DNA from: Emiliania huxleyi CCMP1516
Lineage: Eukaryota
DNA: 52,631 bases
Reading direction: 5' to 3'
NCBI RefSeq assembly: GCF_000372725.1
Contig: NW_005201392.1
Span: forward strand, 987,620-1,040,250
Under the pieces are notes generated by a model. It ran no database searches and was not told the origin of the DNA. It worked only from the letters and a program-made list of their open reading frames with translations. The position numbers and the translations under genes are program-made. Positions 3,084 through 26,200 of this stretch are shown here, piece after piece (within the stretch, counting starts at the first letter, position 1; each line of letters begins with the position of its first letter).

Positions 3084-3705
3084 CGAGCCCCAGCGACCAA
3101 GCCGAAGGGAGGATGCGTTAAACATATGGCTTTCGGAAAGTGAGGCTCTGGGTGCTCGTTGGCCAGCCAAGCGGACAGTGTCGGGCTTGGAGCTTCGCTG
3201 CAAACAAAAGAACTCTCTCTCGCAGTACACAGGCTCGAAAAGAACACGCAAAACAAGTTCCACGACCATGTCATTTTGGTAATTTAAAACGAAAATCAAA
3301 TCTTGGTGGTTTGACGATGTGCACGTTTGGCTTTGTGCATTGTGGGGGGGAGCAGCTAAGTCAGCTCACGGCTACGGTGATCGAGACAGGAAATGTTGCT
3401 AGAAACCTAGAGACTTCAACACACCTCTAACTCTGGCCACTCTGCGGTCTCACTCCGGAGCCCAGCCTGCGCGTCTCTCCTCCCCAGCTCCTCCTCAGAG
3501 CTCCTCTCGCTCTCCTGACGCGGAAGTTGAAAGCTCGGCCATCTGCGGGGAGGGCGACGCGGCTGAGCGAGAGAGGAGTAGCTGCTGCGGTAAGGCTGGC
3601 GGGGATTCGATGGAGGCAAGGGAGTGCCAGACAGTGGAAGTGAGGCCGGCAGGGAGGTGAAGCGCATGTGAAAGCGCATCTCTGGCGACGGGGGTGGCGC
3701 GCACC

Positions 3706-4142
3706 TTACTTCGCAACCTTGTTGATGAGCTGGAGCAGAGTCGACCCAAAGATCACAAACATGAAGAAGCCGAGCAGGAGCTTGGACACTGGGAGCTTGT
3801 CCTTGCGTCGCTGCAGGGCGCAGAGCGCGCGATCAGAGCGCAGGACGGCCGGGTCACGCGCGAGGGTCGCCGCGAGGGCAGGTCGCAAAGGCAGCGGCGC
3901 GGGAGCGACGGGGACTGCAGTGTGTCCACACACACGTGCGTGTGCGCAGAGGCAGACGCCAGCGCTCGCCTCCTCTGACGGATTTGAGATCTGGCCGCGC
4001 TTGGTGACATTGCCGGCAACCTTCTTGTCGCCACTGACGCGGCGGCGCTGGGCGGTGGCGGCGGAGACCTACAGGTGTCCATTGCGCGGCGTGGACGGAG
4101 CGCGCGCGCGCCACGCCGTGGGCCAGCGTGTTTGGTTGCCAT
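3706..4142 (-). CDS. SERP1: Stress-associated ER protein SERP1/RAMP4 (68 aa, 3 exons)
   Basis: Exons 4140-4142, 3970-4068 and 3706-3810 with GC-AG introns give MVSAATAQRRRVSGDKKVAGNVTKRGQISNPSEERRKDKLPVSKLLLGFFMFVIFGSTLLQLINKVAK. This fits the family pattern N(I/V)TxRG...PV...LL.FF.FV..GS...Q. Confidence 0.85.
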
Positions 4143-7221: not shown

Positions 7222-9595
7222 ATGGCCGGCTCGGCCAGCCCACCGGTGCGAGACGTACGAGACGAGGACTGGGTCACGCTCGGGGGGGACGAGCTCGCGG
7301 ACGTGTACGCCCTCCCCGCCGAGGACTACGCTGGCGGCGAGCGCGAGCAGCTCTCCTCGGCGCTCGGCCGGCTCCTCGGCCTGCTGCAGGCCGAGGATGA
7401 GCCCTCGCAATCGTACACGCCTTTTGAGGAGGAGGCCGACGCTGCCGATGCGGTCGCGGCGGAGGCGGCCGCGGTCGCCGCGGCCGCCGCGGCCATGGCG
7501 GCGCGGGCCCAGCGCGCGCTGGCCGCCTCGCAGGCGCGCGTGCGCCAGCTGTGCGCCTGCTGTGACGAAGCCGCCGCGGAGGCAGAGGCGCAGCGTGAGC
7601 GCGCGCGGCGGGTCCGCGCGCGCGCCTCCGCCCTCGAGGCGCAGCTGAGGGACATGCGAGCCGGCGCCGCGTCGCTTGTCGCGGAGGAGGCCGAGGCCGA
7701 AGCGGCCGTCGGCGCGCGGCGCGCGGCGCTGGCGGCCGAGGCGGGGGCGCTGCGCGCCCACGAGGAGGCGGCCGCCTCCGGCCGCGCGGAGGCGCGGAGC
7801 GCGCTCTCCGCGGCGATGGAGCGTGCCTCGGAGGCGGCCGCCCGCGCGGCCGCGGTGAGGGACGGCCCGATGCTCTCCGAGGCGGGATGGGAGGCGCGCC
7901 TTGCGGAGGTCGAGGCGGCGGCGGCCGAGGCGACGGCGGAGCTGGCAGCGGTGCAAGCGGCGGAGGCGGCTCGCGAGGCCGCGCGGGCCGCCTCGCTGCG
8001 GGAGGTGGTGGAGGCGGCGGAGCGGAACAGCGCGCTCGGCGCGATCGAGCTCGACGCGGCCGCCGCGCGCCTCGAGGCACTTGCGTACCGGAGGAGCGGT
8101 CTGGAAGCGCAGGCGCGGAGAGGCGGGAGAGGGGGGAGAGGCGGGAGAGGCGGGAGAGGCGGCGGCGGGGGGGGGGGGGGGGGGGCCTCCCCAGGGAGGG
8201 GCAATTTCTGGAAAAAGTGCCGGGAGGGAGGGAGGGAGGGATGGGGGAGGGGGAGGGGGGGGGGGGGTCGGGAGTGTCGGGTCTCACCGGGGTCCCCGAG
8301 CCCCGTCCCCAGGTGCATGAAGTCGAGGGGCAGCTCCACGCCGCCGAGACCGAGCTCGCCGCTGCGCGTGCCGGCTGCCGTCGAGGGCTGGAGCAAGACG
8401 ACGGCGCTCACCGGGAAGCCGTTCGCCCGTAGGCACGCCCCGCCGCCGTCGAGAGTGCCACGCATGCAGATCGGCTGCGCTCCGCGGTTGTCGACGCGCG
8501 CGCAGCGCTCAGCGAGGAGCGGCGCGACACGCGCCGGCTGGTGGAGCAGGCGAGCGCTGCGGCGAGCGCCTCACTACGCCTTGCCGGGTCCGGGGCCGAC
8601 GACGGCGACGCTCGCAGCGAGGACGACGCGCCGCCGTCGCCGTCGCCGTCGCCGTCGCCAGGGTCGCTCGAGGAGCAGTTGGCGGCGGCCACTGCAGGCA
8701 CATCTCCCCACATCTCCCCATATCTCCCCATATCTCGCTGCAGGCACATTTCCCCACATCTCCCCACATCTCTCCCCATCTCCCCACATCTCCTTCAATC
8801 TCCCCATATCTCGCCGCAGACGTGGAGCGCTGGCGGACGCGCACCGAGGAGCTCGAGCTGCTTCGCGATGTGGTTGTCATCCACACCTCGCCCGACGGCA
8901 GCCGCGGCGCGCTCTGCGAGTACCAAAACGGCGGCCGGCGTGCCGGGCTCGAGTCGTTGCGCCGCGCCCTGGTCGGCGGCCGCTCGCGCCGGCTGACCTC
9001 GCCCATCGCGCGCACTGGGCCTCTCGCTGCGCTGCTGCGGCCGCTGCTGCGCACTTCCGGCTCCGCAAGCGGCGTGGCGCACGGCTCGCGCCCCCTCACC
9101 GCCGGCGCCGCTCTGCTGGGCGGCGGCTTTGGACTTGCCACTCTTGGCCCAGTCGGAGGGACGGCGCTCGCTGGTGCCGGAGCCGCCGCAGCGTACGTCG
9201 CGTCGAGCCGATCCCGCGAGTCGGGCGTGTTTGGTGGCAGCGCCACGGCCGACGACGTCGCCGTGCGTGCGCTTGCCCAAGCGGCCGCGGCAGCCGGCGG
9301 CGGCGATGACGAACACGCCAACGCGGCGGCCGCGGCCACCGGACAGGCCGAGGAGGTGGCGGCGGCGTCACTTCCGGCGGCGGGCGACGACGGCGACCAG
9401 TGCGGAAGCGACGACGGCGACGCCGCCGCCGTGGTCGCTGGCTCGGCGCCCGCCCTACAGCCACCAGGCGTCGCTGCTTTGGCAGCGGCGCATCCCCCCC
9501 CGGAGGTGGACAGGCTCGGGCTTCAGATCCGCATCGTCAGCGCCGACTCTGTCGAGGCGACTCTGCACTTCGCGCCGGCGGTCACTGCCAGCTGA
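7222..9595 (+). CDS. Coiled-coil protein of unknown function with a Gly/Ala hydrophobic segment; about 4 exons
   Basis: Ala/Glu/Arg heptad-rich frame at 7222-8112. Inferred introns ~8113-8312, ~8365-8432 and ~8698-8819 (CCCCACATCT repeats) link it to the 8822-9595 ORF. Confidence 0.6.
8700..8811. repeat. Intronic 10-bp tandem repeat (CCCCACATCT/CCCCATATCT)n
   Basis: Directly visible; the same family occurs in reverse orientation at 16768-16815 and 38566-38605, in introns of minus-strand genes. Confidence 0.9.
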
Positions 9596-10086: not shown

Positions 10087-13000
10087 CTACACAGACTTGC
10101 GCGGCTGGGGCGAGGGCGAACCCGGCAATAGGTACCCGTCGAAATCCAGAGCGGCGTACGCCTTGCGCTCGCCGCGACGACCTCTCCTCGGGCTCCTGTC
10201 GCGGCTCGAAATGCTGCTGCCGCCGCCGCCGCCGCCGCCACCCGCCCACGGCCTTCGGCCGGATGCGACCCCACTGCCCGCGGGCGAGGAGAAAACGGCC
10301 TGCAAACGCTCAATCACCGAGACGAGGCCGGCATCGCTCAGGCCCCCGGCAGCATCGCTCAGCCGCGCAGTCGCCTGAGCAATCTCTGCCAGCGCGGCCT
10401 CCACAGGCCAGACGCGCAGCCCACCGGCAAGTAGCCCACTGCCCTCGCTTGCGCGACCCTCCGGTGGCAGCCGCCGGCGCGACCCGCCCGTCTGCCGCGG
10501 TGACGCAAGCGACGAGCTCAGCGGCGCGAGGTCAGGCGCCGCGGGCGAATCCGCCTTGACGAGTCGCGCCTGCTGGCTCGGCTTGAGCGATCGCAACTCT
10601 GCGAGCAGCGCCCCGACGGTGGTGTCGCGCAGGCGGCACGCCGCCCACTGAATGTTTGTGGGCACGCCTCCGAGCCGAGCAATGAGCTCGTGCCGCCGCA
10701 GCGCCGTGAGCACGTCGGCGGGCGCGGACGAGCCAGCCGCGCGTTCCGCGGCCTCGTCAAGCAGCTCCGCCGCGTCGAGCTCGCGCTCTGTCAGCTCGAT
10801 CAGCAAGAGCGCCGCGTCCCGCTCGCTCATCGGCGCGAGGGTGATGGAGTAGATCGAGACGGGCGTCGTCATCCGCGCGTCGTCGTCCGCGTCGTGAGCA
10901 GCGGCGAAGTCATCGGCCGCGAGCAGCGAGGACGAGTTGGAGCAGAGGAGCAGACGCACGCCCGCAGAGAGGAGCGAGTGGAGGAAGAAGACGAACTGTG
11001 GCCGCGAAGCGTTGATGGCCGCCTCGCACCGGTCGAGGATAAGGAGGCAACAATTGTACTGGGCGAGGTGCGTCGAGAGCTCATCGTTCGACCGCGCCGG
11101 GAAATGCAGAGTCGCGCCGAGCCGGGCGCGCACGCGGTCCGTCCTTCGCAGCCCCTCGAGCGAGCAGCAAAAGATGCCGTGCGGGAACGCGCCGCGCTGG
11201 CGCAAGTAGGCCGCCGCCTCGAGGATAAGGGCAGACTTCCCGTACCCTTTGGCCCCGTAGACGCAGGTGATCTGGTTGGTGAGGCACGAGTGGAGCAGCT
11301 CGTGCAGCTCGAGGTGCCGACCCACAAACGCTGCCCCGTGTGCCAGTTGCTCGCTGGCCGCGGCCTCAGCCTCCTCGGCCCCTCCGACGGCCACACGGCC
11401 TCCCGCAGCACCACGACCGCCGCGCAACTCACGCCGAGAGGAGGATGCGGCGAGGCCGAACTCTGCGGCGGCGGCCGCCGGTGGGGGCAGCGACGGACTG
11501 CCCCCGTCGTCGGTGACGTAGGGCAGGTTCCAAGGGCAGAGCTTCGGGCTCACGTCGATCAGCTCCCCCGGAGGAGGGAGCGGGCCCAGCGACGCGGCAG
11601 CGCCAATGAGGACAAAACCACCCGCCACCGGGGCGTGGAGGGACGCGCTTGCAGCCTCGAAGGCCTCGCGCGGCGCCGCGCCGCGCAGCAGCGCCGTGTA
11701 GAAGGCGGCAGAAAAGGCGGTGACGTCCGCCTCGGGGAGGAAGCCGCGCAAGGCCACCACCGTCTCGCAGCCCGCCTCGAGAAACGCGCGGCCGGCGGGC
11801 TCAGACCCGCGCGCGGTGAGAAAGACGAGAGAAGGGGTGCTGGGTGCGGCGGCGAGCATCGCACGCAGCTCCTCCAGAGGCAACGGCGACAGCTCGCCCG
11901 CGTCCGCCTCGAGCGCTAGGCCCCCAGCATAGTCGGGCGCGGGCAGCAAGTGGAGCATCGGCCGATCCTGCTGGTCGAGCGCCGCGGCGAGCGTGCGCCG
12001 GGTCAAAATCTCTAGCTGCACCTGCAGCGAGACGCCGAGCGGCGAGAGGGCCTCGAGGAGCGCACGCCAGCAGCGAACCCCCGCCCTCTTCGGGAAAGCG
12101 ACCGGCCCCCAACTACCGTCGCCGCCCGTTGGTGATGCCCGGGTCGCGTCGCCGTCGCTGGGCCTGTCGCCGGCAAGGCTGTGGCCAGCCGGCGCCCATG
12201 CGACGAGCGGCGCGGCGTCGAGCACCAACAGCCGGCCAGCGCCGCGGCCCTGCGCACGCGCGCGTTGGAGCAGCGCGCGCCGGACCGCCTCGCCGGCGGC
12301 CCGCGACTCCTGCGCGCGTAGGCCGTCGCCGCGCTGCTGCCACAGCCCCGCGGCGAGCTGTAGCTGCTCGCGCGCGCCATCAAGGTCGCCGAGCGCCGCG
12401 CGCGCCTTGCCGCGTAGCTCAATGACCGCGGGGTCGGTGGTGCCGCACTCCCCCAACATGTCGACGGCGCGGCGTGGCTCGCCGCGAATCAGAGCGAGCT
12501 TGGCCAGCCCGACGGTCGCCGCCCTCCAATGCTCATGGTCCTCATCGCCACCCTCGTCGGCGCCGTCACCACCGCGGTCTCCGCTGTGCTCTTCCGTGCC
12601 TCCTGCCCGCCCGTTGCCCCCGTCTCCGCCCACATTGGGGAAGCAAGCTAGAGGAGAGCGCAGCCGACGAAGCACCTAAGAGTGGAGGTCGGCGTTGGGG
12701 CGCGAGGGTGTGTGCGGGGAGAGCGCGCAGCGGGGGAAGTGCAGAGGCACCTCGCGGTAGAGGTTGTCTGCACGCGCCAGATCCGCGGCGTGCGCCTCCC
12801 GCGAGCGCGGCGACATCTGGCCGCGCGCCAGGGAGAGCGCAAAGGGTGCGGCGAGCTGCGGGCTGCTGAGGAGCCCTGCGCTCGCGCGCCGCCAAAGGCT
12901 GTCGCTGGCCCCTGCAGCGGCTGAGTCGGCAAGCCCACCGTGAGGTCGCTGAGACAGCCTCTCGGCCACAGTGAGGTCGTTGAGGCCAGCGACGATGGCG

Positions 13001-16000
13001 TCGTCCATTTGGTTGAGCTTGTCCTTGATGTAGCTGTCGCCCAGCATGAGCAGCGCACGCACGAGCCCAGAGACCCACCGGCGGCCCCGCTCCGACCCCG
13101 AGGCCATGAGCGCAACCTGCCGCCAGAGCCCCGCTGGCCCTTCGACCGCCGCACCTGGCGTGAAAGTGGTGGCGAGCAGTGGCGACTCAGCCGGCTGCGC
13201 ATCGCTCGCCACGCCGCCCGAGAGGCTGCCTGTGGCTGGCGGCGGCGAGCCCGTGCAGCAAGACGAGTCATGCCGCCCGAGAGGGAGCGCTGGCCAAGTC
13301 TGCGAGAGGAACGAGCCCGCACTAGCGCCGCCGCCGGTGGCGCTGGCGGCGCTGGCGGCGGGGCTGTCGTCGCCGCAGCCGGGTGGATGCAAGCCGGACG
13401 GGGCAAAGCCCGACGACTGGCGAGAGAGACTGGGGAAGAGCGTCGCGTCAAGGAGGAGGGGATCGCCACCTCCAACCGCCGCTCCAACCGCCACCTCCTC
13501 GGCGGCGTCAGCGTCGCGTTCTCCGCCGCCCTCGGAGCGGTGCGCGGCGTCGTCGTCGTTTCCGCCGCTGCCGTAGCCGGAGTCGGAGGCGTTCGACCCT
13601 TTGCCGCCCTCGGGCTCGGCCTCGGAGTAAGCGAGCACCGCGGCGGACAGCACCTCCTGCACCGCCGACATGTCCTCTCCGAGCTGCAGCATCTGATCGC
13701 CAAGGAGGAGCCGAAGCTCGCCCAGCCGCGCGGGCGGCACCTCGAGCACCTGCAGCGCGTCGAGTGTGCGGCGCGCGGCCGATGCCGACTCCTCCCTCCG
13801 GCCGAGCAACGCGAGGATGCGAGCGAGGGCCTCGCCCACGCGTGCAGTGTGCCGCACTAAGGAGCTCGCCCCACCGCCGCCACTGCCGATGTCGCCGATG
13901 ACGCTGCCACCACCGCCGACGCTGTCGGAGAGCGACGACGTGATACTGAGCGCCTCGGAGCAATCGCCGGGCGCCGCGCCGCTGGCGCGAATCAGCTGCA
14001 GCCGCTCGTCGGTGAGGCATGCCCACAGGTTTGGCGCGAGCACCTCGGTGAAAAACTTGCGCCAGCGCGCCAAATCCTCGCCGCCCTCGACGCCCTCGCT
14101 CACCCCGTCGGCAATCTCGCCGCCCTGTGTGGTGGAGCTCCTCCGACCGGAGGGACTACCCGATGTCGCGGGCAGCGCAAACGAGGTGTGCCCCGGTGCT
14201 GCCATGGCCTCGCTACGGGCGTTGGCCTCGAGCAACGCGACAAAGCGTTCGCCGAGAGTGGCGAGCCGGCGCGCGCAGCGGCCCGCGAGCAAGCGCATCG
14301 GCGGCGTCGGCAGGAGCGGATCGAGCACCCCGTGGTCGAGCTCCGAGATGTAAGAGGTCAGGAGCTCGGACATGCCCGCCTCGTGGCGCGGGCTATCGCC
14401 GCCGCGCGGCGACATCGCTGGCCGTCGCTCGGGCGGTGAGGCTGCCGCACCGAGTTGGAGGGTGCGGCGGCGGACGAGCCAGCGAGCGTCGGCGGGCGGG
14501 CCAATCGGCGCCGCCTCTGGCGGCTGATCGGGCCGCTGCACCAAATGCTGCATGAGCGGCCCCCACGGCGGCGGCGGTGGCAGCTCAGCCTCGGCGGAGG
14601 GAGAGCCGCCGCCCTGCACCGCCTCGGCGATCACCTGCGCGACACCTTCATCCGCGCTACTACTCCATAGGGCGTCGAGGTCGGCGGGCGTGGCGCCGCC
14701 AGGAAGGAGAGAGAGGAGCGCAAGGAGCGAGTACGCAGCGGCGTTGTGCTGGCGGAGCAGACCGAGCAGCACCTGCACCGACCGGCGCTGCGATTCGTGC
14801 AGCGCCTCGGAGGGCGTGCCGGCGCCGCCTGCTCCGGCGATGGCGCTGCTGCTCTCGCCGTCCCCGCCGTCTCCGTCGTCGCGGTCTCCACCCGAGCAGT
14901 GCGTGCTGGCGTATACCGCGCTGGGCTCGGCCACTGGTGGCGTCGCCGTGCTGTCGCCCACCCGTTGCTCGCCCGACTCCTCCAGCGGTATTGTCAGGAA
15001 CACGCGTGGGGTTTCCTCCGGCCCCTCCGGTGGGGTGGTGTCGGCCCCGCCTGCCGCACTGCTGCGATCGCCTCCACCGGCACCGCCGGCACCACGGCGC
15101 TCCTCGCGAGCGGGTCCGGAGGAGGGCGTCGCTGTGACTCCATCTGGAGGACGCGGCACACCCTCCGAGTCGGCAGAGCTGCGGCCAGACCCCAGCGCAG
15201 AACCAGGCGCGCTCCGGCGACGCGGCTGCGAGGAAACGCCAGCGCCTCCGCGAGGCTCGTCAGCGTGCCACGCCCCGCGCGCAAAGACCGGGTCCGAGGC
15301 TGAGGCGACTTGCACAGCCACAGAGGCGAGGGCTGACACCACGGGTGGAGGCGGCGGCGAGGCACTCGCGGCACCGCCGGCTGACGCGAGGGTGGTCTGC
15401 GTGTCCTTCGACACGGCTCTCGCCGCCATGGGCTGCCCGCCGTGATCAGCTGCTTGGTCCATGTCGGCAGGCGCTAGCGGCGCCGCCAGCGCTAGCGGCG
15501 CCTGCGCCCTCGCCGGCGCCCTGAGCAGCTCCCGCTCAAGCTCCGCCAGCGAGACGCCCGAGCGCAGCAGCGGCGCGTTCTGGCATATGGCGCCCGGCAG
15601 CCCGGCGAGCGCTCGGAGCACCGGGTGGCCGATGAGCGCGCCGGGCGGTCGCAGATCCGGCGGGAGCACCTCGAGGGCGAGCTCGCGGAAGAGTCGTGCC
15701 GCGTCGTACTCGGAGAGCGGAGACACGTCGATCAGCCGCTCGCCCTGCGATCCGTTGAAGACGCCACTTCGTTGCCGCGCGGTGCACAGCACGCGCAGCT
15801 CCTTTGTGGCGAGCAGCTTTGCGACGAGCGCCTGGACGCCCTTGCAGTCACAGCCGTCGTCGACGTTGTCGAGGATCAGCAAGCCGCGCCACAGCTTGAG
15901 CCCCCGCGAGACGTCGGGCAGCGACCGGAGCTCCATATCGAGCGCCTCGGTGAGCGCCGCGAGCGCCTCCGACTGGGAGCGCCGCCCTGCAAGCTCGACG

Positions 16001-18034
16001 CAGACGCACCCGTCGGGGAACCAGCGCCGCTCGTAGAGGTGACCCGCGGCGGCGATCGCAAGGCTCGTCTTGCCTACGGAAGTGTCTCGGAAGTGTCTCG
16101 GAAGTGCCTTGGAAGTGTCTCGGCAATGTCTCCGAGGCTCGTCTTGCCTACCCCTGGCGCGCCGGTCAGCGTGAGCAGCCGGACCTCCTTATTCCGCTTG
16201 CGGCCGAGGGTGAGCACGAGCTCGCGCAGCTCTACTGCGCGGCCTGTTCACAGCTCGAGGTGTGAAGAGACGCTATTCACAGCTAGAGGGCGCAGCTCTA
16301 CGGCGCGGCCGAGGAAGGGCTTCGGCAGGTAGGGCGGCTCGAGGCCCGGCAGCGGGTTCCGCTCGAGGGGCTCGCCCGGCCACAGCGAGCCGGGCGGGAA
16401 GAGGACCGCCTCGTGCGGGTCCCTGGGAGGGGGAGGCGGCATCGAGAGCCGGCCGCCGGCCGACGCGCGCGCGGGTGGCGGCGCCGGCAGCAGGATGAAC
16501 TTTGCCGCCTCGGCCGCCGGGTGGAGCATCCTCGCCGAAGGGGCAGTGCCGGCGAGCGCGGCGGTGCCCATCTCGAAGGCGGCGCGGACGGAGTTGCCCT
16601 GCACCAGCGCAAGGTAGAGGTGGCGCGCAAAGAGCGCCTACGCCGTGCAAGACAGCCGGGGCCGTGAGCACGGCATCGCGCCGTAGACTCCTAGCACCGC
16701 GTGAATACACGAGTGCAGTGAGCACCGCTCAATGCAGCTGGATACGGCTGAGTGCGGGAGTCCTTAAGATGGGGAGATGTGGGGAGATGTGGGGAGATGT
16801 GGGGAGATGTGGGGATCCGTGCTCCGCATCTAGTGGCGAGCGCCGCAGCGTCGTCGAGCACCTTTGCATCCGCGCGCACACCGACGACATGGGGGACGCC
16901 GCACGCGGCGAAGACCTCCGCGGCCGGCTGCGAGTGGCACGCCGACACGAAGACGAGCCGCGTGCCTCGCACCAGGTTGGCTGGCGCGAGCAGCGCGTGC
17001 AGCCGGTCGAGCGAGAGCTGGTCGAGCGAGCCCTCGTCGTCCTCGAAGCCGAGGAAGAAGGCGCCGGTCTCCTCGTCGATGTCGCCGTGGCAGACGAGGT
17101 GGAGCATGAGCGGCTGCAGCGCGAGCATCTCGCCGAGCGCGGCGCTGCTCGCGACGCCGGAGGACAGCGTGAGGTGCTTGCGCGCGCGCCGCAGCACGTC
17201 CAGCAGCGCCTTGACCTCGCCCTTAAAGTCCAGGGTGAGTGCCTGGTGGTCGAGGGGCAGGATGCGCCGGTTCTTCCTCCAGACCAGCGGCGCCGCGTGA
17301 AGCAGCGCGAGCTCGAGCCGCCCGCCACCCGTGTACAGCGCGCTGCCGCCAAAGCCGTAGAGCGCGCCCGCCGCGTAGCCTCCGGGCGCGGGCGACTGCT
17401 GATCCGGCACCGAGTGCGCCCCCCCGGAGGGCTGGGAGCGGAATCGCGCGACCTGCGGCTCGGGCGCCGCCGACGTCGAGGCCAGCGAGTGCTCGCGGCG
17501 CAGGATGCCACTCGGCAAGCGCTGGCACTGATCGAGGGGCGAGGATGCCTCTGCGCCCGGCCCGGCTGCCAAGGCGGGAGATTCGCGGCACGACAGCTGG
17601 CGGTGCGATGCCGCCTCGCCAGAGGTTATGGAGTCAGAATGACAGCCAAGCAGCATGTCCGAGGCGCGGCGAGGCGGCCGAGGCGTCGTCATCGACGAGG
17701 AGCGCTCCGAGCACGGCGGCGGGGTCGGCTCGCGGACGAGGGCGCTAGGCGTCAGCGGGAGCAGAGGAGCCATCTCAGCCCGCAGCTCGAGAAGCCGCGC
17801 CGACCCGACCTGCGAGCATCCCTCCAGCGGAAGTACCGCGCCGATGAGGGACCATGCCTCAAAGACGCTGTCGAATGCTCGCACAGCCTTGAGCCTCGTC
17901 GTGTCGACGCCGTCCGCCTGCAGCAGGGCGATCACCTGCTCCGCGGAGATGACGTCCTCAGCCCAGTTGACGCGCAGCAGCAACCGGGTCGGGTCGGCTC
18001 CGAGAGTGTAGCGGAGAGCAAGCTCGGCCACCAT
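10087..18034 (-). CDS. NLR-like tandem CHAT-STAND protein (CHAT, NB-ARC-like NTPase, TPR, degenerate CHAT, second NTPase); ~2508 aa, 5 exons
   Basis: Exons 16844-18034, 16310-16637, 16148-16243, 12751-16073 and 10087-12675 join in frame. CHAT dyad LHLVCHG / LVFVSACHS. NTPase 1: FLGRAVEL, GAPGVGKT, FPDG, LLILDNVD. NTPase 2: FVGRHLEL, GAKGYGKS, FPHG, LLILDRCE. TPR-like helices lie between the two modules. Confidence 0.85.
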
Positions 18035-18348
18035 GTGCACCGATTTTTTTCATCAAACGCCACCGTTAGGACCGTCCTCTCGTTTCTTTCTCTCTTTACA
18101 TCGGCTGGCTAACGGCAATAACACAGGCACTGGAAAGTTTACGCTTCCTCCAGCAGGCCTCCGGCACATCGATATGCAGTTCGGGCTCGAGTGAGGGCCG
18201 CGGTTGCGCGGGGCCGGGCTACGGGGGGCCTTGCTCGGGCTGCCGAGAGTGATAAAAAAAATCCATTGCCGTTGCGGACAAAGAGCCCGCTCGACGCCAC
18301 GATAGCCAACGCGCGCGGACAAGAACCCGCTCGTTCTCGCGCTGGCGC

Positions 18349-20331
18349 ATGCAGGCGCCCGCGCGGATCCGAGGCGCGGACTTTGCGCAGCCCTGGCATG
18401 CTGACGCTGCCGAGCGTCAGGTGCTCGAGGCTGAGCGGCGGCACTCCACGCTCATGATGACAGCCGCTGCGGACGGGGCCTGGCGCGCCGTGAGCCACCG
18501 CACGCAACGCGCAGACGACATCCTTGCCATCCAGGATCGCAACCGGATCTTGCAGGTAGAGCTCAATCGCCTGCGTGAGGAGAAGGCCACGGTCGAGGCG
18601 GAGGCGCAAGCCTTCAAGCAGAGGATGGAGTCGGCCGTGAGCAGCTTCGAGGTCATCATCGAGCAGGCGGTCCAGGAGAAGGCCAACACCTTCCAGCAGC
18701 TGGTGGAAACGAGGCAGCGGCTCAAGCAATCCCAGCGGCAGCAGCGCACCGCTGCCGCCAAGGCGGGCCCGAAGCAGCTCACGAGGGTGTTCAGGATCTG
18801 CGAGAGCCGGGACACAGCGGTCGCCCTCGCTCGCTGGCGTGGCTTTGCCGGCGAGCTACGCCACGAACGCGCTGCGGAGAAAATCGCGAGCTTCGAGGCG
18901 GCAGCCCGGGAGCCGGTACGTGAGAGGGAGGAGGAGGAGCTGCTGCGGTCGCAGCTGCAGTGCGCCGTGCAGCGGCTGGCAGCGGCAGACGGGGCGCGCG
19001 AGGAGGAGCAGCGCAAGGCCGAGGAGGCTCGGTCGGCACGGGCGGAGGCGGAGGAGCGCTTGGCGGGCGCGCGGGTTGATTTGGCCGAGTCCAAAGAGTC
19101 GTTGCGCTCCCTGCGCGCGGCCTTCAGCGCCGAGTCCGTGGCTCTCAGCGGCGAATCTACGGCGCTTGCGCGGCGGGCGTCCGAGCTGCAGGGCCAGCTT
19201 GCGGACGCGGAGCACCGCGCCGCACAAGCCAACGAGCGTGCTTGCGAGCTGCAGGCCGAATTAGAGAGGCGCGCTGAGACGTGGTCGCTGGCGGCGCCGG
19301 GCAAGGTCGACCTGATGCGACAGATGCTGCACGAGCAGCAGGAGGAGCTGGCCGAGGCGCGCCGCTTCTCGGCGGCCTGCAAGCTCGTCACAGCCGTCGG
19401 GCGGCGCGACACCCTCTCGCTGTCGACGGCGCTCGGCGCCTGGCGCCGCGCGTGCTCAGAGATGGGCCGCGCTGAGCTGCGCGAACAGCTTGCGGCGACG
19501 GCCGCGCGGGAGCAGCAACGCACAGCGGAGCTGCACGCGCAGCTGTCTGCGTCTGAGGGGCGCGTCGGCGCTGAGACGTGGTCGCTAGCGGCGCCGGGCA
19601 AGGTCGGCCTGATGCGACAGATGCTGCACGAGCAGCAGGAGGAGCTGGCCGAGGCGCGCCGCTTCTCGGCGGCCTGCAAGCTCGTCACAGCCGTCGGGCG
19701 GCGCGACACCCTCTCGCTGTCGACAGCGCTCGGCGCCTGGCGCCGCGCGTGCTCAGAGATGGGCCGCGCTGAGCTGCGCGAACAGCTTGCGGCGACGGCC
19801 GCGCGGGAGCAGCAACGCACAGCGGAGCTGCACGCGCAGCTGTCTGCGTCTGAGGGGCGCGTCGGCGCTGAGACGTGGTCGCTGGCGGCGCCGGGCAAGG
19901 TCGGCCTGATGCGACAGATGCTGCACGAGCAGCAGGAGGAGCTGGCCGAGGCGCGCCGCTTCTCGGCGGCCTGCAAGCTCGTCACAGCCGTCGGGCGGCG
20001 CGACACCCTCTCGCTGTCGACGGCGCTCGGCGCCTGGCGCCGCGCGTGTTTGCTGGCTCGTGAGGCGGATCTGAGGCATACTCCCCGTCTCGCGAAACCA
20101 GCAGCTGAAGGGCTGCCGTTCATCCCGCTCGCGTCGTTGGGCGAGGCTGCTGCCGGCATCAGCCGCGATTCCCCGGGGCGCAGCTCGCCTCCGTCGCAGC
20201 CGCCCTCGGGTTCTCTCGCATCTCCACCCTCGCGGCTGCCGCCCTCGCAGCTTCGCCCGCGTCAAGTCTCTCCAACCGCCGGCGACACGCCGAGCACGCT
20301 TCCCACAATGCATTCGCTCGAAACCCTGTGA
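18349..20331 (+). CDS. Coiled-coil protein with 99-aa internal repeats and L-x-x-W-R motifs (Sfi1/POC5-like)
   Basis: 660-aa open frame with E/Q/R/A heptads; divergent from the NLR-like gene. Confidence 0.7.
   Translation: MQAPARIRGADFAQPWHADAAERQVLEAERRHSTLMMTAAADGAWRAVSHRTQRADDILAIQDRNRILQVELNRLREEKATVEAEAQAFKQRMESAVSSFEVIIEQAVQEKANTFQQLVETRQRLKQSQRQQRTAAAKAGPKQLTRVFRICESRDTAVALARWRGFAGELRHERAAEKIASFEAAAREPVREREEEELLRSQLQCAVQRLAAADGAREEEQRKAEEARSARAEAEERLAGARVDLAESKESLRSLRAAFSAESVALSGESTALARRASELQGQLADAEHRAAQANERACELQAELERRAETWSLAAPGKVDLMRQMLHEQQEELAEARRFSAACKLVTAVGRRDTLSLSTALGAWRRACSEMGRAELREQLAATAAREQQRTAELHAQLSASEGRVGAETWSLAAPGKVGLMRQMLHEQQEELAEARRFSAACKLVTAVGRRDTLSLSTALGAWRRACSEMGRAELREQLAATAAREQQRTAELHAQLSASEGRVGAETWSLAAPGKVGLMRQMLHEQQEELAEARRFSAACKLVTAVGRRDTLSLSTALGAWRRACLLAREADLRHTPRLAKPAAEGLPFIPLASLGEAAAGISRDSPGRSSPPSQPPSGSLASPPSRLPPSQLRPRQVSPTAGDTPSTLPTMHSLETL
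19271..20047 (+). repeat. In-frame 297-bp tandem repeat, about 2.6 copies
   Basis: GCTGAGACGTGGTCGCT.GCGGCGCCGGGCAAGG at 19273, 19570 and 19867; only a few substitutions between copies. Confidence 0.95.
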
Positions 20332-20632: not shown

Positions 20633-21664
20633 TCAACCCTTGTGAATCACAAATGTATGCACGCGGGGCAGCCTCGCCCGCAGTGATGCTGGCTGTGGGC
20701 AACCCATGCCAATGCAGCCGCGCACATCTAGGGCGACTAGCGAGGCTGCTCGGTGAGCAACGAGGGCATCGAGTGCGGCGGCGGTGAGCCCTCGGATGCC
20801 GTGGAGCGACAACACCTCGAGCGGGCAGCCGGCAGCAATGGCCGCGACGCCCACGTCTGTTACGCCAAGGCACCACGAGATCGATAGGGAGTGCAGCGCG
20901 GACGCGACCGCGCCGAGGGCGAGCAGGGGCGCGTCTGCCAGGTCGTTGAGGCCGGTGAAATCGAGCTGTGTGAGGCTGGCGCGAGCCGCGCGCGCCAAGC
21001 TCAGAATGGGCGCCTCGGAGAGCTGTCCATTGGCATAGAGCGTGACCGACACCAGCCTGGGGTTGCCCTGCATGATCGCAGCGGCAGCGATGTCGTCGAG
21101 GAGCGGCATGCGTGTCAGATCGAGCTCTGTGAGGCGTCGCAGCCGCGATGCGACCGACAGCATGCCCTCCGAGCCTATGCCGGTGCACCCCGACAGAGAG
21201 AGGCTCTGCAGCCGGCCACAGCGTGCGAGGTGTCGCGCCGAAGAGTCGGTCAGCCTCACTGCGGCGTAAAGTCGCAGCGATACGAGCGAAGCGCCGCAGG
21301 CACGAACGAGCGCCTCGACGCCGCCGTCGCCGAGGCTGCGGCAAGCATCAAGCGCAAGCGCAGTCAGCCCCGTCGGCAACAGGGCAAGGTGCGCATCGGT
21401 GAGCCTGTCGCAGAATGCTACCTCCAGGCGCCTGAGCTGCGCGTACCGACCACCCGCCTCCCCAAGGGCGTCTTCAAAAAATGCTTTGGGCTCCCGGTTG
21501 CCCGCGAGGTACAGGGCCGCGAGCGATGACCGCCGCGTGGCGGAGCTCAGCACAGCGGAGCAGGAAGCGAGCCGACCAAGGGTCTGCGCGGCGCAGCGAG
21601 CGTGCAACGCAACGAGCTCGAGGGCGCCGTCTCGCCGGCGAGCGTCCTCCTCAGGCGCTGGCAT
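20633..21664 (-). CDS. Leucine-rich repeat protein, cysteine-containing (FBXL/AMN1-like) subtype
   Basis: Repeated LxxLxLxxCxxLTDxxL motifs (LRRLEVAFCDRLTD, LQSLSLSGCTGI, LHSLSISWCLGVTD); no clear F-box seen. Confidence 0.85.
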   Translation of the reverse strand: MPAPEEDARRRDGALELVALHARCAAQTLGRLASCSAVLSSATRRSSLAALYLAGNREPKAFFEDALGEAGGRYAQLRRLEVAFCDRLTDAHLALLPTGLTALALDACRSLGDGGVEALVRACGASLVSLRLYAAVRLTDSSARHLARCGRLQSLSLSGCTGIGSEGMLSVASRLRRLTELDLTRMPLLDDIAAAAIMQGNPRLVSVTLYANGQLSEAPILSLARAARASLTQLDFTGLNDLADAPLLALGAVASALHSLSISWCLGVTDVGVAAIAAGCPLEVLSLHGIRGLTAAALDALVAHRAASLVALDVRGCIGMGCPQPASLRARLPRVHTFVIHKG

Positions 21665-21716
21665 GTCAATACATTTTGCAAGGCGCGGGCTCCGGGCGAG
21701 GTACTCCCACCCACCC

Positions 21717-22550
21717 GGTGAACCTTCTTTTCTACCAGGCTAGGATTGAGAGCAGCCTCGCTCTCAATCCTAGAAGTCGAAGGATTGTGAGCAGCACTCC
21801 TCGCAATCGTAGCATCTCTGTGCGATTGTGAGCGCCTACGCTCGCAATCCTACATCTTCTAGGACTAAGAGCAGCTCCGCTCCCAAGCAAGATGACTGGT
21901 GACGCCTACGACTACTACCAGCGCGCTCGCAATCCGAGCAAAGTCTAGGATTGCGAGCAGCACTGCTCACAATCCTAGCAACATGCCTCCGATTGCGAGC
22001 AGAAGCGCTCGCAATCCTAGAACTTTCGCCGATTGCGAGCGACACCGCCCACAGTCCTACGACTTCTAGGATTGCGAGCGGGTCCCCTCGCAATCGGTGC
22101 GACACTGTTGGATTGTGAGGAGACCCCCCCGGCGCGCTCACTCACAAGCGCTCGCGGCTGGAGCGATTGGGAGCGCCCCCTGTGCGACTGCTAGCAATCC
22201 TTGGATCTTTGGTCTGATTGTGAGCACCGCCGCTCATAGTCCTACAAGATGTAGGATTGCGAGCGCTACTGCTCGCAATCGGAGCCATGTTGCTAGAATT
22301 GTGAGCAGTGCTGCTCGCAAGCCTAGACTTTGCTCGGATTGCGAGCGCGCTGGTAGTAGTCGTAGGCGTCACCAGTCACCTTGGGAGCGGAGCTGCTCTT
22401 AGTCCTAGAAGATGTAGGATTGCGAGCGTAGGCGCTCACAATCGCACAGAGATGCTACGATTGCGAGGAGTGCTGCTCACAATCCTTCGACTTCTAGGAT
22501 TGAGAGCGAGGCTGCTCTCAATCCTAGCCTAGTACAAAAGAAGGTTCACC
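21717..22550. mobile_element. Foldback-type non-autonomous element with ~300-bp inverted arms made of palindromic ~40-bp units
   Basis: 21717-22019 is the near-perfect reverse complement of 22252-22550 (GGTGAACCTTCTTTT...AAAAGAAGGTTCACC). Internal unit is GATTGNGAGC-N5-7-GCTCNCAATC. The target-site duplication is ambiguous (CCC, or CCCACCC/CCCACAC). Confidence 0.85.
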
Positions 22551-23251: not shown

Positions 23252-26200
23252 TCACACCTTTTCCGAACCCTCCCCTTCTGTGGAAGTGGAAGGCGATCCC
23301 GCGGCGCCATCTATCGCCCGGCACAACGGACATGCATTGGAGCTCGTGCTCGATCGCGCCTGCGTGATCATGCAGCGGGCATGGAAACGGTGACCGCAAG
23401 ATAAGGTGTAGCACGCCAGGTTGCCCGTCGCTGTCGCGACTAGCGGGTCAAGGCAAATGGCACAAGCTTCAGCCGCGTCTGATGGCGAGCTGAGGGCCCT
23501 GACGATCAATATGTCGGGGCGTCCCTGCGCCTGCACTGCAGCTGCTTCCGGGGCAATAGGGACGGCCGATACAGCCTGCACGATCGCACTCTGCAAGTGT
23601 TGCGTCCCGGCCGGCGTGGCCGCGTCGATGCACAGCCTGGGTTTGCGTTCCAGCAAGCCGCGTCGACTGACGGCCGTGCCAGCAGCAACTGCGGAGGAGA
23701 TCGTCGTGACAGCAGGTGGGGGCTGCTCGAGCAACGGTGGGGTAGGCCAAACGCGAAGCGCTCGGTCGCCGCCACCCGTTGCAACGTGGTCTCCATTGGG
23801 CGAATATGCAACCGCGCGAAGGACTCCACTGTGTGCGTCTGTCCTCTCGAGGACGGGCGACGACAAGTCGGAGGCGGCGTCCCACACGCGGAGCGCCCCG
23901 TCGCCGCCGACCGTAGCGAGGCGGCTCCCGTCGGGCGAGTAGGCGACCGAGTAGATGCCGCTGGTGGTGGCTCTCTCCATGAGGGGCGACGACAAGTCAG
24001 AGGCGGCGTCCCACACGCGCAGCGCCCTGTCGGTGCCGCCCGTGGCGATGCGGGTGCCGTCGGGCGAGAAGGCGACTGCGCGGACTCGGGCGCCGTGCGC
24101 ATCCGCTCTCTCCATGAGGGGCGACGCCAGGTCTAAGGAGGCGGCGTCCCACACGCGCAGCGCCCTGTCGTCGCCGACTGTGGCGAGGCGACAACCGTCG
24201 ACGGAGAAGGAAACTGAGTAGATGGCGCTCGTGTGCGCGTCCACTCCTACCACGAGGGGCGATGCCAGGTCCGAGGCGTCCCACACGCGCAGCGCCCCGT
24301 CGTCGCCGACCGTGGCGATGCGGCTGCCGTCGGGCGAGTATGCGACCGAGTAGATGGCGCTGCTGTGTGCGTTCGGCTTCTCCAGAGGCGGCGAGGACAG
24401 GTCCGAGGCGTCCCACACGCGCAGCGCCCCGTCGCTGCCGCCGGTGGCAATGCGGGTGCCGTCGGGCAAGAACACGACGGAGAAGATGTCGCCCCTGTGA
24501 GCCGTGGCTTGTTGAATGCTAGGCGACGACAGGTCTGAGGAGGCGTCCCATACACGCAAAGCGCTGTCGCTGCCGACTGTTGCGACGCGGCTGCCGTCGG
24601 GCGAGTACGCGACCGAGAAGACGCTGCCCTGCCGCCTTCTTGCAGCAGCAAGGACCAGGGAGCAGCAGCAGAGGCAGGTCGACATACAGATGCCAAGTAT
24701 TAGAGGCAGCCGCAAGTTGTCACTGCCAGTGTCGACGAGAGGGAGCGCACTTCGCTCCAACGGGAGGTACGGGGGTGGGATCAGCGGCGGAGGCGCCGGC
24801 GCCGGTATGATGCCCTGGCAGAAGAGCAGCCCGTCCGGAGCAGTCAACGGAATGAGCTGCCCCGACTCGTCGGGCCTCTGGCAGTAGTCGTGCTCGTAGA
24901 AGATGTCGGTGATGAAGCCCCGGTCCGCGCAGAACTTGACGTGCATGAAGTCGCGGTTCTGCTCCTCTCTCGACAGCCCCAGGCACGCTCTCTCGTACAC
25001 CGCCTGCGCCCCCGGATCGGGCGGCAGGAGCAGCGCCTGCACCTCGGGCGGCTGACGGGCGTAGTAGTCGCACATGTCGATCGGCGCCAGCCACACCGGC
25101 CGGAAGTCGGGGTCTTCGCAGCCGCACTCGCCGTCTCGCGTCGCCGGCCGCCGCACTGGCCACGAGCTGTTTGGCTGGCTTATGGCGGCGTAGAAGGTGT
25201 TGACGGTGTCGAGCGCAGTGGAGGAGGAGTTGGCCAGCGCGTCGTAGTCGAAGAAGATGTTGCAGGGGCAGTCCACCTCCTCGTTGCTCTGCGTGGGCCC
25301 AACAGGCCCGATGTCGGTGCCGCACATCATGGCGCCGTCGCGGGCAAGGCGTGGGTAGAGCGTGAAGTTGTTCGCCGCCTCGGGCACGCAGTACTCCTTG
25401 CTGAGGTAGTAGTTGTAGCGCACAAAGGCGGGCGTCGCGCACAGCCGGACGTGATGGTAGTACTCATTGACCTGCTCGCCCGGCGCAAAGGCGGAGCAGG
25501 TGCGATTATACGACTCCTGCAGCTGCCCCGACGTGAAGAGCACGTCTCGCTGCGTCGCGTTGAGGGTGTCGAACCAGAAGCACAGGTCGAGGGCGGCCAG
25601 CCAGACGGGGCGGTCCTCGGCGCTCTCGCACGCGCAGCCCCACTTCGGGTCGTACACGGGGAGGCTGAGCGGCCAGGCGTCGTTGGTCTGGAGGACGAAG
25701 AAGAGCGCGTTGGTGTCGTTGAGGAAGGAGGGGGAGTTCGCTGTGCCGCCATCCAGGTCGTAGTAGGGCGAGCATGAGCAGGGCGGCGAGGGCGAAGGAG
25801 GCGAGGACGGTGGAGGCGAGGGCGGCGGCGGCGAGGGTGGAGGCGGCGAGGGCGGAGGAGGCGAGGGCGGCGGCGGCGAGGGCGGAGGCGGCGAGGGCGG
25901 CGGAGGCGAGGGCGGTCGATGCGAGGGCGGAGGAGGCGAGGGCGGTGGAGGCGAGGGCGGTGGAGGCGAGGGCGGAGGCGGCGAGGGCGGAGGAAGCGAG
26001 GGCGGAGGCGGCGAGGGCGGAGGCGGCGAGGGCGGAGGTGGAGAGGACGGAGGTGGACTTGGTGGCGGCGCTGAAGGAGGCGGCGGCGATGGAGGCGGCG
26101 GGCTCGGCGGGGGCCTTGGCGGCACCGGGCTGGAAGGTGGCGGCGAGGGAGGCGGCGGCGAGGGTGGGGAAGGCGAGGGCGGCGGCGACCCTGGTGGTGG

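What the first reader, a model, noticed from the sequence alone, without database searches (positions are those of the whole stretch)
10087..18034. Tandem CHAT-protease/STAND-NTPase NLR-like protein: candidate algal immune or cell-death switch
Seen: three long ORFs plus small exons splice in frame into one ~2508-aa protein. It carries a CHAT (caspase-like, clan CD) domain with an intact His/Cys dyad (HLVCHG, VSACHS), an NB-ARC-like NTPase (GAPGVGKT, LLILDN), TPR-like helices, and then a second CHAT+NTPase module. Known: effector-STAND-repeat architecture defines NLRs and prokaryotic Avs antiviral proteins, and CHAT proteases act in gasdermin activation and CRISPR-associated proteolysis. Inference: a ligand-triggered, oligomerising protease receptor, possibly antiviral or involved in programmed cell death. 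The doubled module is unusual, and the Walker A motif is split by an intron so ORF-level annotation would miss it.
Basis: partly seen in the sequence, partly recalled or inferred. Interest (0 to 1): 0.85.

Follow-up and report, generated by a model that had tools for sequence, protein, structure and literature searches.

The report
Protist switch pairing live, dead proteases
One large gene, kept across distantly related single-celled eukaryotes, carries a caspase-like protease domain with its cutting residues intact and a second copy that has lost them, each beside a nucleotide-binding switch domain, and it likely works as a self-regulating protease switch; a role in immunity is untested.

Summary
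The gene is real. Five exons on the minus strand give 2508 aa without a stop. All four introns are skipped in contigs from 4 of 4 runs laid, and a relative encodes the whole architecture in one intronless ORF. (1) The second CHAT domain has lost both catalytic residues in 31 of 31 double-module proteins examined; the first keeps both in 23 of 31. (2) The first 90 residues are modelled as a beta-grasp domain closest to polymerising DIX/PB1 domains. (3) The doubled architecture is not a local oddity: it occurs in Prymnesium, a foraminiferan and many unnamed eukaryote-type proteins, and its four domains share one tree among seven close orthologues. Module 1 is a complete effector-STAND-TPR unit; module 2 is a pseudo-protease plus a shortened STAND. 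Best reading: an ancient protist STAND-controlled protease switch with a built-in pseudo-protease partner (0.5). An antiviral or cell-death role is possible but unsupported: no expansion, no effector neighbour and no induction were found. I found no description of the family in five open-literature searches. New variant of a known kind; interest 0.72.

The parts
10087..18034 (-). Whole gene: five exons, 2508 aa
   Evidence: intronless 3015-aa orthologue L001:9071-18118
17765..18034 (-). N-terminal beta-grasp domain (aa 1-90), fold closest to DIX and PB1 polymerising domains
   Evidence: model pLDDT 89.8; Ccd1-DIX Z 8.8, Dvl2-DIX 8.6, NBR1-PB1 8.5, SOSEKI 8.3; alignable in 31 of 31 double-module proteins, one only in part
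16482..17320 (-). CHAT1 (aa 239-449, spans intron 1) with His316 (17089-17087) and Cys366 (16939-16937)
   Evidence: Pfam above cut-off; both columns align with the His and Cys of SAVED-CHAT; coordinates
15508..16325 (-). STAND NTPase 1 plus helical domain (aa 502-727, spans introns 2 and 3): Walker A, Walker B, T-A-R sensor 1, G-L-P
14434..14811 (-). Predicted winged-helix domain of module 1, set off by about 230 aa of low-complexity sequence
   Evidence: its profile hits just behind the NTPase in single CHAT-STAND-TPR proteins; family profile covers Roq1 181-501 and Apaf-1 111-422; no hit in 16 more distant proteins
12244..14316 (-). Helical domain and about five TPR-like hairpins, broken by low-complexity inserts (spans intron 4)
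   Evidence: orthologue alignment; Pfam TPR_2 above cut-off in P0003; atlas hits 0.90-0.93 to TPR clusters
11575..12240 (-). CHAT2 (aa 1792-2013), pseudo-protease: no catalytic His, Arg in place of Cys
10579..11337 (-). STAND NTPase 2 plus helical domain (aa 2093-2345): Walker A, Walker B and G-x-P kept; no winged helix or repeats detected behind it
16638..16843 (-). Intron 1, 206 nt, GC-AG, holds a 10-nt tandem repeat
16244..16309 (-). Intron 2, 66 nt, GC-AG
16074..16147 (-). Intron 3, 74 nt, GC-AG, splits Walker A 1; a 17-nt direct repeat at its ends
12676..12750 (-). Intron 4, 75 nt, GT-AG; joins the two long ORFs; if retained it ends in a stop

Best explanation
This is one conserved protist gene whose protein joins a predicted ubiquitin-like (DIX/PB1-type) domain, a caspase-like CHAT domain with intact catalytic residues, a STAND NTPase with TPRs, a second CHAT domain without catalytic residues and a second, shortened STAND NTPase; it likely acts as a nucleotide-gated protease switch with its own built-in regulatory partner. 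SHOWN: the gene structure, the domain order, the live/dead pattern of residues, both P-loops kept, and the wide conservation. INFERRED, in order: (1) at rest, module 1 is closed and ADP-bound as in Apaf-1 or plant NLRs; (2) a ligand at the TPRs allows nucleotide exchange; (3) chains assemble through the two NTPase domains and through head-to-tail contacts of the beta-grasp domain; (4) assembly orders the CHAT1 active site, as filament formation does for SAVED-CHAT; (5) CHAT2 and NTPase 2 serve as a non-catalytic partner that restrains or props up module 1, like cFLIP for caspase-8 (recalled) or the pseudo-protease half of Csx29; (6) CHAT1 cuts one or a few specific substrates. The biological input is more likely a conserved internal cue than a fast-changing viral protein, because the gene is inherited as a stable unit.
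For: Splicing and single ORF. CHAT1 fold and dyad; SAVED-CHAT dyad and filament activation: 10.1101/2023.06.23.546230, passages. CHAT2 lacks the aligned His and Cys in 31 of 31 yet stays conserved: mean identity 0.47 against 0.19-0.20 for the linkers among 7 orthologues, with 41 invariant columns in 8 sequences. Walker A lysine in 23 of 24 (NTPase 1) and 22 of 24 (NTPase 2); G-x-P proline in 22 and 21 of 24. The family profile matches AfsR, PH0952, Roq1, Apaf-1 and TPR proteins. The N-terminal model matches DIX/PB1 best; DIX domains polymerise head to tail, also in SAR protists (PMC7042713, passages). Same topology for all four domains in 7 orthologues.
Against: 8 of 31 double-module proteins have also lost His or Cys in CHAT1, so proteolysis is not needed in every member. 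No activity, ligand or substrate is known. DIX/PB1 likeness rests on one predicted model at Z 8.3-8.8, close to the background best of 7-8, and has no sequence support. The sensor-1 Arg is not conserved across the wider family in either NTPase. The helical part of the module-1 model is poor (pLDDT under 50 from residue 400), and the NTPase fold ties between NB-ARC and Cdc6/ORC. The module-1 model is of an orthologue (P0006), not of the window's own protein.
Confidence: 0.5

Rival explanations
1. It is a true innate-immune or cell-death receptor: the TPRs would sense a conserved viral or parasite product and CHAT1 would cut a death effector, with module 2 as a fused helper or decoy.
For: Module 1 has the effector-STAND-repeat order of NLRs. 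Fungal NLRs with a CHAT domain control gasdermins (PMC12881547, passages). The closest solved CHAT folds are from prokaryotic defence systems. A conserved target would not demand fast evolution.
Against: No second long contig at 80% identity among the pieces listed (table cut). One Prymnesium hit in each of three searches. Congruent domain trees. No gasdermin or other effector hit among 23 window ORFs. No Avs profile hit. In a published virus time course of Gephyrocapsa huxleyi the only CHAT-annotated gene among 2174 changed genes fell (log2 -1.83, padj 0.049, one time point) and was flat in recovered cells (PMC12489294 supplement); that it is this gene is not shown.
Confidence: 0.25
2. It is mainly a nucleotide-regulated polymerising scaffold, for example in cell polarity, the cytoskeleton or cell division, in which proteolysis would be secondary or dispensable.
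For: Both P-loops and the beta-grasp domain persist in members with two dead CHAT domains. DIX proteins of SAR protists localise near the flagellar base and are proposed to act in polarity (PMC12077222, first third of the text).
Against: CHAT1 is the slowest-evolving domain among the 7 close orthologues (tree length 1.83 against 2.74-3.92), and keeps both residues in 7 of 7 of them and 23 of 31 overall. The doubly dead proteins may be paralogues beside a live copy; six of the eight form one clade.
Confidence: 0.2
3. Two separate genes, or a chance fusion or annotation artefact.
For: Intron 4 ends in an in-frame stop, so retention would give a module-1-only protein. No long reads were available.
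Against: The joint is spliced in 4 of 4 runs. An orthologue has one intronless ORF. 31 proteins hold both modules in one chain.
Confidence: 0.02

Closest known systems
Fungal NLRs with an N-terminal CHAT protease that control gasdermins (PMC12881547, passages)
   Same: CHAT effector in front of a STAND NTPase and repeats
   Different: Here a beta-grasp domain precedes CHAT and a dead CHAT plus a second NTPase follow the TPRs; no gasdermin neighbour found; conserved rather than part of variable gene clusters
SAVED-CHAT of type III-B CRISPR (PDB 8TL0; 10.1101/2023.06.23.546230, passages)
   Same: Best sequence and fold match of CHAT1; His and Cys align; a small N-terminal domain precedes the protease
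   Different: SAVED binds cA3 and has no STAND or TPR; here polymerisation is only predicted
Csx29 (TPR-CHAT) and separase (10.1101/2022.08.17.504292, passages)
   Same: TPRs, a pseudo-protease part and an active protease part in one chain
   Different: There the pseudo part directly precedes the active part in one sheet; here the dead copy is a whole second CHAT domain about 1300 residues downstream with its own NTPase
Apaf-1/caspase-9 apoptosome, and caspase-8 with cFLIP (cFLIP recalled; only seen in a search listing)
   Same: STAND platform driving a clan CD protease; a catalytically dead homologue as regulator
   Different: Those are separate proteins linked by death-fold domains; here all parts are in one chain and a beta-grasp domain stands where a CARD would
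Prokaryotic STAND-TPR regulators AfsR and PH0952; Avs proteins (Avs features recalled)
   Same: NTPase, winged helix and TPR sensor
   Different: Eukaryotic, spliced, doubled; no Avs profile hit
DIX-domain proteins Dishevelled, Axin, SOSEKI and the SAR 'Musketeer' proteins (PMC7042713 passages; PMC12077222 first third)
   Same: N-terminal beta-grasp fold followed by a disordered linker
   Different: The SAR proteins described carry kinase, ELMO, DnaJ or no further domain; that paper's text has 0 occurrences of CHAT, caspase or haptophyte; DIX and PB1 tie in the fold search
Single-module CHAT-STAND proteins of stramenopiles and other unnamed sources
   Same: Same CHAT-NTPase unit (28-37% identity); named examples Mucochytrium quahogii and Skeletonema marinoi
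   Different: One module only, either C-terminal behind SPRY/ARM/LRR or N-terminal before TPRs or a kinase; S/T-G-H before the catalytic site, against C-H in most of the doubled family

Membership tests
CHAT (PF12770) protease, first copy | Profile score above the curated cut-off | tested here: met
   31.2 bits against 24
CHAT (PF12770) protease, first copy | Caspase-hemoglobinase fold | tested here: met
   Model of orthologue P0006: SAVED-CHAT Z 21.5, rmsd 2.7, 195 aligned; Csx29 Z 13.8
CHAT (PF12770) protease, first copy | His-Cys dyad at the aligned positions | tested here: met
   His316 and Cys366 sit in the columns of the SAVED-CHAT His and Cys, 47 residues apart there as in the paper; 23 of 31 family members keep both
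CHAT (PF12770) protease, first copy | Proteolytic activity | not testable with these tools
   Needs an assay
CHAT (PF12770) protease, second copy | His-Cys dyad | tested here: not met
   Absent in 31 of 31; the domain still passes the Pfam cut-off, 25.4 bits
STAND NTPase / NLR (features from PMC2323615, passages) | Walker A with G-K-S/T | tested here: met
   Both modules; Lys in 23 and 22 of 24
STAND NTPase / NLR (features from PMC2323615, passages) | Walker B aspartate | tested here: met
   LLILDN and LLILDR in the window; second acidic residue variable
STAND NTPase / NLR (features from PMC2323615, passages) | Sensor-1 arginine | tested here: inconclusive
   NTPase 1: 6 of 7 close orthologues; NTPase 2: 0 of 8; not conserved in either across 24 wider members
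STAND NTPase / NLR (features from PMC2323615, passages) | G-x-P helical domain | tested here: met
   Proline in 22 and 21 of 24
STAND NTPase / NLR (features from PMC2323615, passages) | Winged-helix domain after module 1 | tested here: met
   Profile covers Roq1 181-501 (E 4e-6) and Apaf-1 111-422 (E 0.008). The conserved WH histidine was not found
STAND NTPase / NLR (features from PMC2323615, passages) | Winged helix and repeat sensor after module 2 | tested here: not met
   Only 69-417 residues follow G-x-P in 24 members; no WHD or TPR profile hit there
STAND NTPase / NLR (features from PMC2323615, passages) | Effector - NTPase - repeat order | tested here: met
   Module 1 only; the TPRs are internal
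STAND NTPase / NLR (features from PMC2323615, passages) | Ligand-induced oligomerisation and a role in immunity | not testable with these tools
   Indirect signs (expansion, effector neighbour, induction) were not found
NB-ARC (PF00931) in the strict sense | Profile score above the curated cut-off | tested here: inconclusive
   No hit on the window pieces, where Walker A is split; close orthologues reach 10.9-22.9 bits against 23.5, while NACHT, AAA_16 and nSTAND1 score higher; the foraminiferan member passes with 40.1
Avs/AVAST antiviral STAND | Match to PADLOC Avs profiles | tested here: not met
   0 Avs hits at E<=0.01 for 6 sequences; only weak mad8 and TRIP13
DIX / PB1 polymerising domains | Beta-grasp fold closest to DIX/PB1 | tested here: met
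   Top 5 of 48,161 chains are DIX or PB1, Z 8.3-8.8, rmsd 2.2-2.8; DIX and PB1 tie
DIX / PB1 polymerising domains | Sequence profile match | tested here: inconclusive
   No Pfam hit at E<=10 for 2 sequences; none in PDB sequences (best 60 of 233 rows)
DIX / PB1 polymerising domains | Head-to-tail polymerisation | not testable with these tools
   Needs SEC-MALS or a complex prediction, which was not available
Fungal-type CHAT-NLR/gasdermin cluster | Adjacent gasdermin or other death effector gene | tested here: inconclusive
   No such Pfam hit among 23 of the window's 165 long frames; divergent gasdermins could be missed

The most novel reading that the evidence does not exclude
An ancient, undescribed protist 'apoptosome in one chain': a DIX-like domain builds a filament, a live and a dead caspase-like domain pair as caspase-8 and cFLIP do, and two STAND domains act as a fused sensor-helper pair. 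It would be the regulated clan CD protease behind cell death in bloom-forming algae and other protists, and would extend DIX-type signalosomes to haptophytes and to proteolysis.
Probability: 0.2. Interest if true: 0.9.

Novelty: new variant of a known kind. Interest (0 to 1): 0.72.

Why it matters
All parts are known, but the combination appears undescribed and old: it is shared by a haptophyte, a foraminiferan and many unnamed eukaryote-type proteins. A fixed live/dead protease pair with two switch domains in one chain gives a simple system for asking how STAND proteins and pseudo-proteases control caspase-like enzymes outside animals, plants and fungi. Caspase-like activity during the death of bloom algae has long lacked a clear enzyme (recalled). 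This gene offers a concrete candidate with testable residues (His316, Cys366, two P-loop lysines). The GC-AG introns, one inside Walker A, explain why gene callers would fragment it.

Tried and rejected
No whole genome is held, so copy number could not be counted. No listed run is on record as RNA; RNA origin is inferred from the spliced joints. An upstream GT donor for intron 1 also keeps the frame (2502 aa) but is rejected: the contigs skip 206 nt, not 224. Viral contigs gave no relative (one pattern). The metagenome scan with P0006 alone gave none. No prokaryote genome relative was found for the single-module protein P0107 (close relatives only). NCBIfam gave nothing useful. A single-sequence PDB search was blank. 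The atlas was blank for the N-terminal domain. The two-sequence N-terminal profile hit only a designed Kelch repeat by summed weak repeats, rejected as chance. The winged-helix profile found nothing in 16 distant proteins before it worked on closer ones. The origin of module 2 is unresolved: the CHAT tree joins modules 1 and 2 at 92/91, the quick NTPase tree does not, and the concatenated tree separates them while the AU test does not reject one clade (p 0.064). In the 89-row FastTree, row P0174_1 was paired with the wrong NTPase and long branches meet, so it is only a rough guide. P0008 was left out of all trees. No shared neighbours between the window and L001. Earlier scan findings by sequence: none; by words: none.
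Full report
1. Observation. The minus-strand frames 16691-18049, 12676-16188 and 10087-12675 are present. Splicing exons 18034-16844, 16637-16310, 16243-16148, 16073-12751 and 12675-10087 gives 2508 aa with only the final stop. Three introns are GC-AG (206, 66, 74 nt) and one is GT-AG (75 nt). Contigs from 4 of 4 runs laid (4 studies; labelled 'RNA?') skip each of the four. One 7393-nt contig covers 10254-18026 with all four removed. A metagenome locus from another organism, L001, encodes the same domain series in one intronless 3015-aa ORF. A metagenome contig of nearly the same sequence as the window (L003) differs at 9 coding positions, 6 synonymous and 3 not, all three outside the CHAT and NTPase domains. 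The two-gene reading is refuted. The organism is inferred to be a haptophyte: the nearest named orthologue is Prymnesium parvum AB1Y20_004261 (45% identity over 78% of exon 5), and GC-AG introns are typical of coccolithophores (recalled).

2. CHAT1. Pfam CHAT passes the cut-off. A model of the orthologous module (P0006, 7-row alignment, pLDDT 71) matches SAVED-CHAT best: Foldseek E 2.4e-8; Z 21.5, rmsd 2.7 A over 195 residues. In the profile alignment the columns of His316 and Cys366 meet a His and a Cys 47 residues apart in that chain, the spacing of the published dyad H375/C422 (10.1101/2023.06.23.546230, passages).

3. CHAT2 is dead but kept. Modules 1 and 2 are homologous (27.5% identity, E 6e-24). 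CHAT2 has no residue equivalent to the catalytic His, and Arg replaces Cys in the window and in 6 of 8 close orthologues. It is still conserved: mean identity among 7 orthologues is 0.64 for CHAT1, 0.47 for CHAT2, 0.64 and 0.54 for the NTPases, and 0.19-0.20 for the linkers. Tree lengths are 1.83, 3.92, 2.74 and 3.53 for CHAT1, CHAT2, NTPase 1 and NTPase 2, and all four give the same topology. The larger mixture-model trees agree only in part.

4. STAND parts. Against the features listed in PMC2323615 (passages), both NTPases keep Walker A, the Walker B aspartate and G-x-P. NTPase 1 has the sensor-1 Arg in 6 of 7 close orthologues and NTPase 2 in 0 of 8, but neither keeps it across 24 wider members. 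A 24-sequence family profile matches SAVED-CHAT (4e-15), AfsR (3e-8), a plant NLR (At5g04720, 3e-7), PH0952 (4e-6), Roq1 over residues 181-501 (4e-6), Apaf-1 over 111-422 (0.008) and several TPR proteins. Module 1 is therefore NTPase, helical domain, winged helix and TPRs. Module 2 ends 69-417 residues after G-x-P. By fold alone the NTPase ties between NB-ARC and Cdc6/ORC, and strict NB-ARC membership is not established.

5. A missed domain. Residues 1-90 are conserved (0.29) and have no Pfam or atlas hit. The window's own sequence folds at pLDDT 89.8 into a beta-grasp. Foldseek gave nothing below E 0.001. Among 48,161 chains the top five are Ccd1-DIX (Z 8.8), Dvl2-DIX (8.6), NBR1-PB1 (8.5), Axin-DIX (8.4; title 'ubiquitin fold protein', name recalled and seen for 1wsp) and SOSEKI (8.3). 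DIX domains polymerise head to tail and occur in SAR protists (PMC7042713, passages). PMC12077222 (first third read) reports Z above 8.5 among DIX domains and below 5.5 for a ubiquitin-fold control, and does not mention CHAT, caspase or haptophytes. The scores here are borderline and DIX cannot be told from PB1.

6. The family. A profile search of 1.84 billion representatives gave 544 hits at E<=1e-30, of which the best 150 were seen. Of the 146 new ones, 24 hold two modules. With the window's protein and six close orthologues that makes 31. All 31 align an N-terminal domain (one only in part), all 31 lack the aligned His and Cys in CHAT2, and 23 keep both in CHAT1; 8 have lost one or both there too. 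Named members are P. parvum and the foraminiferan Nonionella stella. Most others are unnamed, with a composition typical of AT-rich genomes. First modules of 30 of the 31 group with four short single-module proteins at 99 local support in a rough FastTree. Most share C-H at the catalytic site, where other single-module relatives have S/T-G-H. Single-module relatives include SPRY/ARM/LRR-CHAT-STAND proteins of Mucochytrium and Skeletonema and CHAT-STAND-TPR or kinase forms. Whether module 2 arose by internal duplication or by fusion is open.

7. Mechanism. Shown: structure of the gene, order of domains, residue pattern, conservation. Inferred: a closed, ADP-bound resting state; a ligand at the TPRs; assembly through two NTPases and the beta-grasp domain; ordering of the CHAT1 site on assembly, by analogy with SAVED-CHAT filaments; and CHAT2 with NTPase 2 as a built-in non-catalytic partner, by analogy with the pseudo-protease part of Csx29 (10.1101/2022.08.17.504292, passages) and with cFLIP (recalled). 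I give this 0.5. No contact between these parts was tested.

8. Immunity. For: NLR order in module 1, fungal CHAT-NLRs upstream of gasdermins (PMC12881547, passages), and defence proteins as the nearest CHAT folds. Against: no second long contig at 80% identity in the pieces listed (table cut), congruent domain trees, no effector hit among 23 window ORFs, no Avs hit, and members with two dead CHATs. In PMC12489294 (passages; supplement file 1 head and searches) one of 2174 changed genes is annotated CHAT; it fell at one infection time point and was unchanged in recovered cells. It is not shown to be this gene. I give the immune reading 0.25 and a non-proteolytic scaffold 0.2.

9. Novelty. Five searches of the open library (listings only, apart from the papers named above) showed no paper on this architecture. 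with 10.1101/2024.05.08.593092 (passages) only identified 8TL0; some searches served comparisons. Subscription journals and preprint supplements are not covered. Earlier AI notes of this scan describe other CHAT-STAND proteins of protists and fungi, one with dead paralogues beside a live copy (unchecked, not used as support). Verdict: observation confirmed; interpretation partly supported; new variant of a known kind; interest 0.72.

Noticed in passing
window 12676-12750, 16074-16147, 16244-16309, 16638-16843: Each intron's first letters are repeated at the start of the next exon (4, 13, 7 and 6 nt; chance 1.4%, 0 of 10551, 0.09% and 0.2% in a local null), and orthologue L001 has no intron. 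This fits recent intron gain by tandem duplication across an AG|GC site; loss in L001 is not excluded. Two introns of a neighbouring transcript (3543-3704, 3811-3969) share only 2 letters.
   Followed up: partly
window 23252-31035 (-): A 2234-aa frame with long Gly-rich repeats and WD40 repeats, preceded by a frame with a VWA domain; probably one giant spliced gene.
   Followed up: no
L001:7330-8922 (-): Divergent neighbour of the orthologue, 530 aa, no Pfam hit; its motifs look like a HET/TIR-like domain (recalled, untested). No such neighbour was found in the window.
   Followed up: no
P0112, P0119, P0121, P0138, P0189, P0223 (one clade), P0188, P0232: Family members in which CHAT1 has also lost His or Cys while the family-wide P-loop lysines are nearly invariant; possible dead paralogues.
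   Followed up: partly
P0007, P0016-P0018, P0020-P0025, P0027 (diatom-type proteins): ARM/LRR-CHAT-STAND proteins with the module at the C-terminus and Arg for Lys in Walker A.
   Followed up: no
P0139, P0140, P0190, P0194: Shorter proteins with one CHAT and one NTPase that nest among first modules of the doubled family; three of the four hit the N-terminal profile. They may have lost module 2.
   Followed up: no
P0096 (Nonionella stella) and P0152: Extra domains in relatives: an RRM between CHAT1 and NTPase 1 in P0096; SAM and KH in the single-module P0152. Possible RNA sensing.
   Followed up: no
window 8692-8812 and 16770-16815: The same 10-nt tandem repeat occurs in intron 1 and in a neighbouring gene region, and draws very many contigs; probably a common intronic repeat.
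   Followed up: no
window 18256-20331 (+) and 20633-21739 (-): Divergent upstream neighbour with a 297-nt exact tandem repeat, and an LRR frame beyond it.
   Followed up: no
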